Of a stretch of DNA of 64,000 nucleotides, positions 61,172 through 64,000 are shown piece by piece (within the stretch, counting starts at the first letter, position 1; every line of letters starts with the position of its first letter). The DNA is from the human T2T-CHM13v2.0 reference genome, Homo sapiens. The stretch covers positions 36,352,001 through 36,416,000 of the forward strand of contig CP068257.2 in the NCBI GenBank assembly GCA_009914755.4, given 5' to 3'. The position numbers and the translations under genes were made by a program. The notes under the pieces were generated by a model. The model saw only the letters and a program-made list of their open reading frames with translations, made no database searches and was not told the DNA's origin.

Positions 61172-61282
61172 CATACCACAACCCTTCTTGAGTGCCTGCT
61201 AAGAGCAGTTTCCATGTGAAGTGCTTGGAGATGATTAAAACACATCACTGCCTATGGGGCTCTCAAGGTGAAGTGAAGGGAA
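61172..61282 (-). repeat. inverted partial copy (about 110 bp, about 90% identical) of the palindromic element at 63222-63333
   Basis: 'ataccacaacccttcttgagtgcctgctaagagcagtttccatgtgaagtgcttggagatgattaaaacacatcactgcctatggggctctcaaggtgaagtgaagggaac' equals the reverse complement of 'gttcccttcacttcatcttaagcgtctcataggcagtgatgtgttttaataatctccaagcacttcacatagaaactgctcttagcaggtactcaagaagggttttggtat'. Confidence 0.85.
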
Positions 61283-62220
61283 CTCCTAGAGACCCAGAGA
61301 ACTGTACATAATGAGAAAGTGCAGTGGTGCAGCTGAGCACGGGAGCCTAGAAAGAGCATAATACCTTCAACTGCTATTGATTGAGTGTTACTCTGCTTCT
61401 CTGTCTCTGCTTCTCTGTCTCTGTCTAGCATGCCTAAGTTTGCTATTTCCAAGATCTGGATTTTGGGGTATAATGCCTATCTGCTGTTTTTTTTTTTCTG
61501 TCCCCCTCTCCCCACTCTTTTTTGGCACTACACTGTTTTTCTTCTGAAAAACTGTCCTTCTGCCATACCTGGTTCATGTGACTCTGAAGTGTGGCTTGAT
61601 CCACTTCTTGGCAAGGACTCACATGAGAGGCCTGGCCCATTGGTGTATTCCACATCCCTGTCCAGTGGCTGGTTTGGGAATAGGCATGTGACCCAAGTCA
61701 GACCAGAGCAGAGTAATCTGAGGACATTCAGGGACCTATGGAGAAAGAGATACCCTCTTTATGGCTGCTGAGCAGGTAGGAGGCACAGCTGGATATACAG
61801 AGCTCCCATAGAGGACAGGGTGCCTGGGAAAGAAGCTGATGTAGAAGACAAAATGTGGGCGGGGTCCTGGTGACAACTTTGTGTCCTGGGCCAGGCCATA
61901 TTTAACTAGATGCATGGACTTGTAGATCTGTAATCCCACAAATCTCCAACACGTCCTTTACCCTATCTCACCAGGAAGAGTTTGAGTAACCCTTAATATA
62001 ATAATCCAACTTTCATCTGCTATTGTTCTTGGGTGAATAGCTATTCACTTCTCTGGGAAGTTCATGGGGGAGGAGTGACTAGTAGGGTAGGATCCAGGCC
62101 TTCTGGTGTCCATGGTTGTAATGTCAATCACAATACTGTCAAATGTCATCTGAAACTCCTAACAGAGGTCACCAACTTCATCTCCCCACTTACATTCAGA
62201 TATAAGATTTCTAAAAATCT

Positions 62221-62514
62221 TTTTTTTTTTTTTGAGACGGAGTCTTGCTCTGTCACCCAGGCTGGAGTGCAGTGGCACGATCTCGGCTCACTGCAAGCTC
62301 CGCCTCCCAGGTTCACGCCATTCTCCTGCCTCAGCCTCCCGAGTAGCTGGGACTACAGGCGCCCACCACCACGCCCGGCTAATTTTTTCTATTTTTAGTA
62401 GAGATGGGGTTTCACCATGTTAGCGAGGATGGTCTCGATCTCCTGACCTCGTGATCCGCCCGCCTCGGCCTCCCAAAGTGCTGGGATTACAGGTGTGAGC
62501 CACCGCGCCCGGCC
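62221..62514 (-). mobile_element. AluY SINE
   Basis: near-consensus Alu in reverse with a poly-T of about 14 nt; TSD 'ttctaaaaa.ctt' at 62208-62220 and 62515-62527. Confidence 0.92.
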
Positions 62515-63094
62515 TTCTAAAAACCTTGGTTTCACCATCAATGGTTATTTGCAGGTCACGTCACTGGTCACTGGTGGCCTTCTCACAGCATAAAACTGTT
62601 AATGAACTGAGACTGTAGACTTGAAAAAAGTGTGAAATGGAAAAACACCAAAACACCTGTCTTCTGTGATGTTTGTATACAACCAATTATTTGCAATAAT
62701 CACAACCGGCTTGAATACAATATAAAAAGAACCTTTCCATTATACTGTTAAAAGTATACAAATGCCTCACTCAAGTCTTTCAATTAATATAAAGTATGAT
62801 TGAGAAATTAAGCTTGTTAACTTTCCACCCCCATTCACCTAACGCAACATATTCAATATCATATATAAGAAACCTAAAACCACACCTAAACATGTAAAAC
62901 TCACCTAAACATTCATGTTCTGGTGCTATTGGCTGTACAAGTATGAGGAGATAGCTTTTAAATAAAAATGGCAACATATATTAAGTATATTTCATGAGGT
63001 AAGAAATTGCATGATTACCTAAGTCCTTTTGATGTAAATTGTACCACATTTTGCCTGCTCTGCCGGTTTAAACAAATCCACAGCCCTGGAAATT

Positions 63095-63366
63095 ACTCTA
63101 GATTTGATTTTTGCGCTTCTATGCAAACTATACCACAACCCATCTTGCAAACTATACCACAATCCTTCTTGAGTACCTGCTCTAGATTTGAACTAGAGCA
63201 GGTTGCTTGGGTCCCTAGGTGTTCCCTTCACTTCATCTTAAGCGTCTCATAGGCAGTGATGTGTTTTAATAATCTCCAAGCACTTCACATAGAAACTGCT
63301 CTTAGCAGGTACTCAAGAAGGGTTTTGGTATAGTTTGCACAGAAGTGCAAAAATCAAATCTAGAGT
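63095..63366. repeat. palindromic element: inverted arms of about 72 bp around a spacer of about 108 bp, with an additional arm-like repeat just after it
   Basis: left arm 'actctagatttgatttttgcgcttctatgcaaactataccacaa[24-bp local duplication]tccttcttgagtacctgct'; right arm 63294-63366 equals the reverse complement 'actctagatttgatttttgcacttctgtgcaaactataccaaaacccttcttgagtacctgct'; an inner 10-bp palindrome 'cctgctctag...ctagagcagg' at 63176-63202; a further arm-like copy at 63390-63430. Confidence 0.85.
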
Positions 63367-64000
63367 TAACTACTCTAGCACCAAATCCAGAGTAGTTAAC
63401 ACTCTTGAATACCTGCTCTAAATTTAAACCTGAGCATGTTTAAAGAAGGTGTCAATCTGAAGAGGTAGGACCAGTCATCACTGTAAGTAATGAAAAGGGA
63501 AGTCAGTGGAGGAACATATATTTCTTCAAATACAAGAACATTCCCTTATGCAAGCTTTCCCTTCCCCAAACTCTATGCAATATTATTTGCCCAGTGGCAG
63601 GAATCATGCTTAAGCCATTAGCATCATAAATTGCTTAGAAAACAAAGTATGGCTTATTTGAAAGATATATGGAGAACTGAGCAAATTAAGTCTGTCCCTG
63701 CTGTTTTATCTTTATTTATTAATGGCAATAATTCTGTCCTAATCGTTTGTATAGCACTTAGTCAATTATGTGGCATCTAAAGCTCTTCAAGTGATTTTAG
63801 TTAATGTCTTCCTTTTTCTCCTGCACAGGCAGATGCAAATTGCTCTGGGGAAAGTTGTAAGGTCAAGGGCAGTTGTGGTTTCTGCTGTTAAGGGAATCTG
63901 TACAGTCACCCCTCTTCCCAAGACAAGAACTTAGAATTGATGAAGTAAGCAATCAACAGATCACAGCAGATATAAGGAAAGTACTTTAAAGAGACGGAAT

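What the first reader, a model, noticed from the sequence alone, without database searches (positions are those of the whole stretch)
61172..63430. Palindromic ~270-bp element at 63.1 kb with an inverted partial copy 2 kb upstream
Positions 63095-63366 form an inverted repeat of about 72-bp arms at about 95% identity. The left arm carries a 24-bp local tandem duplication, 'cccatcttgcaaactataccacaa'. The arms flank a spacer of about 108 bp. Another arm-like segment follows at 63390-63430, and there is an inner 10-bp palindrome 'cctgctctag/ctagagcagg'. A segment of about 110 bp covering the spacer plus one arm is present in inverted orientation at 61172-61282 at about 90% identity. The architecture, inverted arms plus an internal region with dispersed partial copies, is that of a non-autonomous DNA transposon or MITE fossil, or of a locally duplicated hairpin-forming element. 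The two copies in opposite orientation 2 kb apart could pair if co-transcribed. I could not match it to a family from memory.
Basis: seen in the sequence. Interest (0 to 1): 0.5.

Follow-up and report, generated by a model that had tools for sequence, protein, structure and literature searches.

The report
Decayed hairpin transposon relic with local copies
A real 270-bp palindromic repeat in non-coding primate DNA, with two partial copies nearby, looks like the dead remnant of a small cut-and-paste transposon and is most probably ordinary genomic debris, not a functional element.

Summary
Positions 63096-63365 form a strong palindrome (arms about 63-73 nt, 92-94% identical; RNA fold -124.7 kcal/mol, z = -13.8). 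The left arm carries a 24-nt tandem duplication and an 11-bp-stem inner hairpin.

There are two partial local copies:
- An inverted copy at 61077-61296 (core 61173-61296, 91% identical).

No other copy exists in the 64-kb window or in any collection I could search. There is no coding potential and no Rfam family.

The complete copy is bounded ATTA|CTCTAG…CTAGAG|TTAA. This fits the published piggyBac-superfamily signature: a TTAA target duplication and a terminus matching C[CAT][CAT][TGA][TAG][TGA]. It is the only position in the window that does so. It shows no hAT 8-bp duplication and no intact mariner TA duplication.

It is not MER85 and not MIR-derived. Divergence dates the copies to roughly 21-47 Myr, which overlaps the last known DNA-transposon activity in primates.

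Best reading: a fossil non-autonomous piggyBac-like element whose copies arose by local hopping or duplication. The main rival is local template-switch duplication without a transposase. Dfam/RepeatMasker and cross-species alignment were not available, so I could not test membership in a catalogued family such as MER75 or Looper. Interest is low.

The parts
63092..63095 (.). Left flank ATTA. Candidate target-site duplication: TTA is exact, and it is 3/4 to TTAA.
   Evidence: Sequence. An exact 3-bp TTA/TTA direct repeat has a chance of 0.0195. The TTAA-type signature has a chance of 0.00093 per position.
63096..63204 (+). Left arm of the palindrome. Terminus is CTCTAGATTTGA. It contains the 24-nt tandem duplication and the inner hairpin.
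   Evidence: Inverted repeats I1/I2 at 92-94%; alignment 49/53.
63122..63169 (+). 24-nt tandem duplication TGCAAACTATACCACAAYCCWTCT, two units, 22/24 identical.
   Evidence: the repeat finder D4; TRF period 24, 2.1 copies, score 86.
63175..63203 (+). Inner perfect hairpin ACCTGCTCTAG-ATTTGAA-CTAGAGCAGGT. It is created by a 12-13-nt segment (63182-63194) that repeats the terminal word CTAGATTTGA. That segment is absent from the right arm and from the 61-kb copy.
   Evidence: I10, 11 nt at 100%; D5, CTCTAGATTTGA at 63096 and 63180; fold -21.0 kcal/mol.
63205..63293 (.). Unique internal spacer S, bracketed by direct AGCAGGT at 63197-63203 and 63304-63310. It is shared with the 61-kb copy and absent from the downstream deleted copy.
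63294..63365 (-). Right arm of the palindrome; terminus is ...TCAAATCTAGAG.
63366..63369 (.). Right flank TTAA (candidate target-site duplication). It is shared with the following mini-palindrome.
63370..63395 (.). 26-nt mini-palindrome CTACTCTAG-CACCAAAT-CCAGAGTAG, bracketed by TTAA on both sides (63366-63369 and 63396-63399). Its arms repeat the element's terminal words CTCTAG and CAAATC[C/T]AGAG.
   Evidence: I5, 15 nt at 93%; D3 and D7; fold -15.1/-21.4 kcal/mol.
63368..63452 (+). Second copy, in tandem and internally deleted. It has a junction/terminus block (63368-63378, 10/11) and an inner arm plus loop (63402-63440, 32/39), and continues as a degenerate hairpin to about 63452. It lacks spacer S.
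   Evidence: Local alignment score 48, z = 10.5, 0 of 3000 genomic controls. Colinear long-gap alignment score 55.8 against a control maximum of 43.5.
61077..61296 (+). Partial copy in inverted orientation relative to the 63-kb spacer plus right arm. It has a terminus block 61077-61093 (15/17), then 79 nt where the right arm has about 15, then the core 61173-61296 (113/124, 91%). It has no second arm.
   Evidence: I1.

Best explanation
The 63-kb palindrome (63096-63365) is the fossil of a small non-autonomous cut-and-paste DNA transposon: a MITE or foldback-type element with long inverted arms and about 90 nt of unique internal sequence. Its boundaries suggest a piggyBac-like transposase mobilised it into a TTAA site.

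Two further pieces of the same element lie close by. One is a deleted copy directly downstream that shares the TTAA. The other is a one-armed inverted copy 2 kb upstream. They arose at about the same time, roughly 20-45 Myr ago, either by local re-insertion ('local hopping') or by local duplication. Since then all copies have decayed by point mutation, a 24-nt slippage duplication and internal deletions.

The element has no coding capacity and no demonstrated present function. Its only predictable activity is passive: if the region is transcribed it forms long double-stranded RNA.

Shown here: the palindrome, the copies, their boundaries, the divergence, and the absence of ORFs, protein domains and known RNA families.

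Inferred: transposition as the origin, the superfamily, the order of events, and any RNA pairing in vivo.
For: - A discrete palindromic unit far beyond chance (z = -13.8; arms 92-94% identical).
- The same terminal word (CT)CTAGATTTG ends both arms and also heads the 61-kb copy (15/17, p about 0.002-0.007). A truncated form (CTCTAG) heads the downstream copy (10/11 block). Each has a different flank.
- The boundaries read ATTA|CTCTAG...CTAGAG|TTAA. The exact TTA/TTA repeat has a chance of 0.02. Exact TTAA on one side with at most one mismatch on the other occurs at 0.09% of positions. Adding the published piggyBac terminal motif at both ends leaves only this one position in the 64-kb window (criteria from PMC5381638). 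That paper also describes piggyBac-like elements with imperfect subterminal inverted repeats of 11-400 bp.
- In the shared 28 nt, the three arm copies are equidistant (26/28 each, with one private change each). This indicates a near-simultaneous origin.
- The 61-kb and 63-kb copies differ at 11 of 124 sites (JC K = 0.094), giving 21-47 Myr. This overlaps the time when primate piggyBac elements were active: PGBD3/MER85 arose more than 43 Myr ago (PMC3459987), and MER85/MER75B have not been mobile since the human-rhesus split (PMC2268245).
- No protein domains in or between the copies and no Rfam family, as expected for a non-autonomous relic.
Against: - No additional copy was found anywhere: not in the rest of the window, not in viral, prokaryote-genome or metagenome collections, and not in protein space. 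Those collections hold essentially no primate DNA, so this is weak evidence. It does mean a dispersed family has not been demonstrated.
- Three related pieces within 2.4 kb is not what independent insertions of a dispersed family would give. It needs local hopping or duplication.
- The left TSD is ATTA, not TTAA.
- The 61-kb copy's terminus is preceded by GAGAGAG, not TTAA.
- The arms (63-73 nt) are much longer than typical piggyBac TIRs (12-19 bp).
- The boundary signature was recognised post hoc.
- The downstream flank of the 'insertion' is related sequence, so a clean empty site cannot be reconstructed.
Confidence: 0.5

Rival explanations
1. Purely local origin without a transposase. One unit of about 160-220 bp (terminus + arm + spacer) was copied by replication template switching or fold-back priming. 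This produced an adjacent inverted partial copy (making the palindrome), a tandem copy that later suffered deletions, and an inverted copy 2 kb away. The TTA/TTAA flanks are coincidental in AT-rich DNA.
For: - All related pieces lie within 2.4 kb and nowhere else in 64 kb.
- The star-like, equal divergence of the three arm copies fits one burst of rearrangement.
- Short words recur in alternating orientation (CTCTAGATTTG at 63096, 63180 and 63416; its complement at 63355 and 63382). There are micro-palindromes at the junctions (AGAGT-TAACT-ACTCT) and a direct AGCAGGT bracketing the spacer. These are typical of template-switch products.
- The 11-nt direct repeat AATTACTCTAG/AACTACTCTAG includes 4 nt outside the palindrome.
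- The local region is 61% A+T.
Against: - The combined boundary signature (TTAA-type flanks plus the piggyBac terminal motif at both ends) is unique in the window.
- The homology of the 61-kb copy ends at the same terminal word as the palindrome, with unrelated flanks. That suggests a pre-existing discrete unit.
- A 2-kb-distant inverted copy of only about 220 bp is unusual for fold-back events.
Confidence: 0.3
2. The copies are fragments of an already catalogued repeat family (for example MER75, MER75A, MER75B or Looper, or an unclassified MER or X_DNA family). RepeatMasker would name them directly. The local cluster is then a nested or adjacent insertion of a known MITE. This is a refinement of the best explanation, not a contradiction: under it the finding is 'already known'.
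For: - Human repeats are exhaustively catalogued, with more than 1300 consensus sequences including five piggyBac families (PMC5753468).
- The age estimate and the TTAA-type boundary match the primate-specific piggyBac MITEs. MER75/75A/75B together have about 680 copies (PMC4625184).
Against: - This could not be tested.
- MER85 specifically is excluded: it is 140 bp, and its diagnostic palindrome is absent here (PMC3459987).
Confidence: 0.45
3. The 61-kb and 63-kb segments are the long terminal inverted repeats of one transposon of about 2.3 kb (61077-63366). An AluY was inserted into it later.
For: The two segments are inverted with their termini facing outwards. They are 87-91% identical over about 150 nt.
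Against: - Ten stop-free fragments of the interior give no Pfam domain.
- The outermost 30-80 nt, normally the best-conserved part of a TIR, is the worst-conserved part here.
- It does not explain the complete palindrome with its own flanking repeat at 63 kb, or the tandem deleted copy.
- There is no matching duplication flanking 61077 and 63366.
Confidence: 0.03
4. A functional structured-RNA locus: a hairpin precursor of small RNAs (a MITE-derived microRNA or endo-siRNA), or a selected double-stranded RNA or ADAR-editing substrate.
For: Very stable hairpins form on both strands (-124.7/-122.8 kcal/mol). A long-range duplex of about -215 kcal/mol is also predicted. Palindromic MITEs are known sources of microRNAs (own knowledge, e.g. 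MADE1/mir-548).
Against: - No Rfam family reaches threshold. The only hit on the element is mir-3116 at 19.9 bits against a gathering score of 65, E = 1.
- The arms carry 6-8% mismatches, a 24-nt duplication on one side only and a 13-nt indel. This is a pattern of neutral decay, not maintenance.
- No expression or conservation data were available.
Confidence: 0.05
5. The hairpin is built from inverted MIR SINE sequence, like mir-3116.
For: By eye there are motif resemblances to the MIR 3' half, and there is a weak mir-3116 Rfam hit.
Against: Smith-Waterman against a MIR/MIRb probe gives z = -0.3 to 1.9 for the element, against z of about 17 for a genuine MIR control. The probe was recalled from memory and validated by six true MIR hits in the window.
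Confidence: 0.01

Closest known systems
Primate piggyBac-derived MITEs (MER75, MER75A, MER75B, MER85; Looper)
   Same: - Non-coding and a few hundred bp long.
- TTAA-type flanks.
- The terminus fits C[CAT][CAT][TGA][TAG][TGA].
- Internal and subterminal palindromes are present.
- The age overlaps the primate-specific burst.
(PMC5381638, PMC3459987, PMC2268245, PMC12324416.)
   Different: - Arms of 63-73 nt against TIRs of about 13 bp.
- The left flank is ATTA, not TTAA.
- It is not MER85 (wrong size, diagnostic palindrome absent).
- Sequence identity to MER75 or Looper could not be tested.
Palindromic mariner/Tc1-type MITEs of the human genome (MADE1, MER53)
   Same: Almost wholly palindromic short elements that fold into long hairpins and can seed microRNA genes (own knowledge).
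   Different: There is no intact TA duplication at either possible boundary (TA/TT or TT/TA). The termini do not resemble mariner or Tigger TIRs. The Rfam models of mir-548 and mir-1302 do not match.
Foldback (FB)-type elements
   Same: Long inverted arms containing short tandem sub-repeats, and variable internal deletions between copies.
   Different: FB-type families are not catalogued in the human genome (PMC5753468 lists none). Only one 24-nt duplication is present here, on one arm.
Template-switch or fold-back inverted duplications (non-TE palindromes)
   Same: A local cluster of direct and inverted copies with micro-palindromic junctions.
   Different: The unit has a defined terminus reused in all copies and a TTAA-type flank.

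Membership tests
piggyBac superfamily (non-autonomous element) | TTAA target-site duplication on both sides | tested here: inconclusive
   The right flank is an exact TTAA. The left flank is ATTA (3/4), with TTA exact on both sides. The chance of this signature is 0.00093 per position. The 61-kb copy's terminus is not preceded by TTAA.
piggyBac superfamily (non-autonomous element) | First six terminal nucleotides fit C[C/A/T][C/A/T][T/G/A][T/A/G][T/G/A] at both ends (PMC5381638) | tested here: met
   CTCTAG at both ends. The motif is loose: both ends fit at about 0.5% of random positions.
piggyBac superfamily (non-autonomous element) | Short TIRs (12-19 bp), optionally with subterminal inverted repeats (PMC5381638) | tested here: inconclusive
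   The inverted repeat is continuous for 63-73 nt. This fits only the structural group with TIRs overlapping long imperfect STIRs.
piggyBac superfamily (non-autonomous element) | Sequence relationship to an autonomous piggyBac element or to a catalogued derivative (MER75, Looper) | not testable with these tools
   No Dfam/Repbase library is available, and the consensus sequences are not in the accessible papers.
MER85 | 140-bp element with 13-bp TIRs and an internal palindrome GTTCCAtTAtTGGAAC 3 bp inside the 5' TIR (PMC3459987) | tested here: not met
   The element is 270 bp. No match to the palindrome with up to 3 mismatches occurs in 61-63.5 kb.
hAT MITEs (MER-type) | 8-bp target-site duplication | tested here: not met
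   The 8-nt flanks are GGAAATTA/TTAACTAC and TGGAAATT/TAACTACT. With TAG taken as the start they are AATTACTC/GAGTTAAC.
Tc1/mariner MITEs (MADE1, MER53, Tigger-derived) | TA target-site duplication | tested here: not met
   The flanks are TT/TA or TA/TT depending on the boundary chosen. One substitution would restore TA, so this is not a strong exclusion.
PIF/Harbinger MITEs | 3-bp TWA target-site duplication | tested here: met
   TTA is exact on both sides (chance 0.0195). However, Harbinger repeats are not known in the human genome (PMC5753468), the terminus is not Harbinger-like (own knowledge), and TTA is a subset of the TTAA reading.
MITE (generic) | Many dispersed copies of a short non-coding TIR element | not testable with these tools
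   Only three local copies were seen. The public collections searched contain no primate DNA.
MIR SINE / mir-3116-like hairpin | Significant sequence similarity to the MIR consensus | tested here: not met
   z = -0.3 to 1.9 against z of about 17 for a true MIR. The Rfam mir-3116 hit is 19.9 bits against a gathering score of 65.

The most novel reading that the evidence does not exclude
The three copies belong to an uncatalogued, low-copy primate DNA-transposon family with a TTA/TTAA target site and unusually long foldback arms. It would have been active about 20-45 Myr ago. That would make it either a new piggyBac-like MITE lineage, or the first Harbinger-type (TWA) repeat reported in a human-like genome, which Repbase says has none. 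In either case it would be among the last DNA transposons to move in the anthropoid lineage.
Probability: 0.07. Interest if true: 0.5.

Novelty: new member of a known kind. Interest (0 to 1): 0.2.

Why it matters
As it stands it matters little: it is one more decayed palindromic repeat in non-coding primate DNA.

It would matter modestly in three cases:
- If a genome-wide search showed an uncatalogued family. That would add to the short list of DNA transposons active late in primate evolution, and could provide further substrates for the domesticated PGBD proteins, which are reported to bind human piggyBac-like elements (PMC12324416).
- If the locus proved to be transcribed. The hairpin of about 125 kcal/mol and the 2-kb-range duplex of about 215 kcal/mol would then be strong double-stranded RNA substrates for ADAR or Dicer.
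- As a worked example of how a MITE plus local rearrangements builds nested palindromes.

Tried and rejected
(1) MIR-SINE origin. I noticed motif resemblances and a weak mir-3116 hit. My recalled MIR consensus was validated as a probe (six true MIRs in the window). The element scored at background, so this was rejected.

(2) A single 2.3-kb long-TIR transposon. There are no Pfam domains in the interior and the outer ends are poorly conserved. Rejected.

(3) Search for more copies.
- Two viral-contig scans found nothing.
- The genome contigs 18-mer scan gave 86 loci, all seed-only chance hits.
- The metagenome-contig scan gave one chance hit.

(4) Protein-space route to orthologous or paralogous loci.
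- Exact look-ups of three ORFs are not on record.
- An exhaustive HMMER search with the 81-aa ORF gave only low-complexity hits.
- I therefore did not spend the costly homologue searches.

(5) Literature route to the MER75, MER85 and Looper consensus sequences. The papers hold no sequences as text. A full-text search for six fragments of the element found nothing relevant.

(6) Upstream-flank similarity (63032-63061 to the inner arm). It is marginal (p about 0.04) and was not counted.

(7) The outermost 30 nt immediately upstream of the 61-kb core (61115-61172) is not significantly similar to the outer arm. The terminus block lies further upstream, at 61077.
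Full report
**Context.** The window is primate non-coding DNA. An almost intact AluY sits at about 62220-62515 with its own target duplication. Several MIR fragments occur elsewhere. No Rfam family passes threshold anywhere in the 64 kb. None of the long ORFs tested has a Pfam domain.

- The repeat finder reports inverted arms 63095-63147/63314-63366 (53 nt, 92%) and 63146-63181/63304-63339 (36 nt, 94%). 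The offset between the two pairs is caused by a 24-nt tandem duplication in the left arm (63122-63145/63146-63169, 22/24).
- With that duplication and a 12-13-nt indel allowed, the left arm (63095-63204) mirrors 63294-63366, about 73 nt.
- As RNA, 63095-63366 folds at -124.7 kcal/mol against -60.3 +/- 4.7 for dinucleotide shuffles (z = -13.8). The other strand folds as well (-122.8).
- The inner perfect hairpin is at 63175-63203.
- The upstream inverted copy is 61173-61296 against 63208-63331, 113/124 identical without gaps.

1. The sequence just downstream of the palindrome is related to it. Two colinear blocks match: 63368-63378 to 63091-63101 (10/11) and 63402-63440 to 63166-63204 (32/39). 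Their combined score exceeds all 3000 size-matched genomic controls. The piece continues as a degenerate hairpin to about 63452 and lacks the roughly 90-nt spacer. It is therefore a second, internally deleted copy in tandem.
2. Between the two copies lies a 26-nt mini-palindrome (63370-63395). It is built from the element's terminal words and bracketed by TTAA on both sides.
3. The 61-kb copy carries a terminus-like block at 61077-61093 (15/17 to 63363-63347). It is colinear and in the right orientation, with p about 0.002-0.007. The block is separated from the well-conserved core by 79 nt, where the right arm has about 15. The sequence immediately upstream of the core is not significantly arm-like.

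The rest of the window holds no further copy.

**Boundaries.**
- The complete copy reads ...GAAATTA|CTCTAGATTTGA...TCAAATCTAGAG|TTAACTAC...
- TTA is an exact 3-bp direct repeat (chance 0.0195). The 4-nt flanks are ATTA and TTAA.
- No 8-bp (hAT) duplication and no intact TA (mariner) duplication is present.
- Against the published piggyBac-superfamily criteria (TTAA duplication; first six nucleotides C[C/A/T][C/A/T][T/G/A][T/A/G][T/G/A]; some groups with imperfect subterminal inverted repeats of 11-400 bp; PMC5381638), the element fits.
- Exact TTAA on one side with at most one mismatch on the other occurs at 0.09% of positions. Together with the terminal motif at both ends, the observed position is the only one in the window.
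- This was recognised after the fact. The arms are far longer than the usual TIRs of about 13 bp, and the 61-kb terminus is not preceded by TTAA. I therefore treat the superfamily call as a lead, not a result.

**Relationship and age of the copies.**
- In the 28 nt shared by the left arm, the right arm and the 61-kb copy, each pair is 26/28 identical and each copy has one private change. This is a star-like pattern.
- The 61-kb and 63-kb copies differ at 11 of 124 sites (JC K = 0.094, or 0.047 per branch). That gives 21-47 Myr for rates of 2.2 to 1.0 x 10^-9 per site per year.
- This overlaps the known window of primate piggyBac activity. PGBD3/MER85 arose more than 43 Myr ago (PMC3459987). 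MER85 and MER75B show no mobility since the human-chimpanzee-rhesus split (PMC2268245). No DNA transposon family is active now (PMC5753468).

**Function.**
- No ORF crossing the element is meaningful, and the interior between the copies has no domain.
- The only Rfam match on the element is mir-3116 at 19.9 bits against a gathering score of 65 (E = 1).
The duplex is about -215 kcal/mol. In a fold of 61100-63460 the minimum-energy structure pairs the 61-kb copy with 63.2-63.3 kb, not the local hairpin.
- Whether the region is transcribed is unknown.
- The mismatches, the one-sided duplication and the indel in the arms look like neutral decay.

**Attempts to name the family.**
- Dfam/RepeatMasker is not available here.
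- DNA scans of the viral, prokaryote-genome and metagenome collections returned nothing or seed-only chance hits.
- Exact ORF look-ups and one exhaustive HMMER search showed that the protein collections do not contain this locus or any paralogue.
- The papers on human piggyBac-like elements do not hold consensus sequences as text.
- MER85 is excluded on size and on its diagnostic palindrome (PMC3459987).
- A MIR origin, which I suspected from motifs and the mir-3116 hint, is rejected: z of at most 1.9 against about 17 for a true MIR.

**Verdict.** The finding is real and somewhat richer than described.
- The best-supported reading (confidence about 0.5) is a fossil, non-autonomous, piggyBac-like foldback or MITE element. 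It has two partial copies generated locally at about the same time.
- The main rival (about 0.3) is a purely local template-switch origin. The tight clustering and the micro-palindromic junctions favour this reading.
- It is quite possible (about 0.45, overlapping the best reading) that RepeatMasker would simply name it as a known family.
- The kind of object is well known either way. The residual novel possibility, an uncatalogued late-acting primate DNA transposon family, has a probability of about 0.07. Interest is low (0.2).

Noticed in passing
window 62209-62532: A near-consensus AluY in minus orientation (poly-T first) at about 62220-62515. It is flanked by the direct repeat TTCTAAAAATC/TTCTAAAAACC. 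It explains the sub-threshold Rfam hits to Metazoa_SRP, mir-1268, mir-3135 and mir-1285. It lies between the two inverted copies and so lengthened their spacing by about 300 bp.
   Followed up: partly
window 60295-60368: A purine-rich microsatellite (AGAAGG/AGG)n, about 70 bp. It directly follows what translates like an Alu at about 60000-60290, and is probably an expanded Alu tail.
   Followed up: no
window 61391-61423: A perfect 14-nt tandem repeat CTCTGCTTCTCTGT x 2.4 (TRF score 66), about 100 bp after the end of the 61-kb copy.
   Followed up: no
window 61094-61172: In the 61-kb copy, 79 nt separate the terminus-like block from the conserved core, where the 63-kb right arm has about 15 nt. 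The segment ends with CCATCTTGAAAA. This matches the junction of the two tandem units in the 63-kb left arm (CCATCTTGCAAA). It hints that the two-unit version may be ancestral and not a private duplication of the left arm. Unresolved.
   Followed up: partly
window 63197-63203 and 63304-63310: The roughly 100-nt spacer of the palindrome is bracketed by a direct 7-nt repeat AGCAGGT, and the downstream deleted copy lacks the spacer altogether. The spacer could therefore be a secondary insertion into a simpler hairpin element, or could have been lost by microhomology-mediated deletion in the second copy.
   Followed up: no
window 1037-1171, 4282-4410, 28066-28099, 37189-37218, 41676-41725, 51949-52025: MIR/MIRb SINE fragments (71-87% identical to a consensus recalled from memory). 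They were used only as positive controls.
   Followed up: partly
window 48653-49504 (+): An unusually long 283-aa ORF for non-coding primate DNA, followed by a 110-aa ORF at 49583-49915. It has no Pfam domain, and the exact sequence is not on record in the ORF-indexed assemblies. It is possibly a decayed retroelement gag-like region or an unannotated exon. It was not identified.
   Followed up: partly
window 62875-62912: A 19-nt tandem repeat TAAAACACACCTAAACATG x 1.9 in the AT-rich stretch upstream of the palindrome.
   Followed up: no
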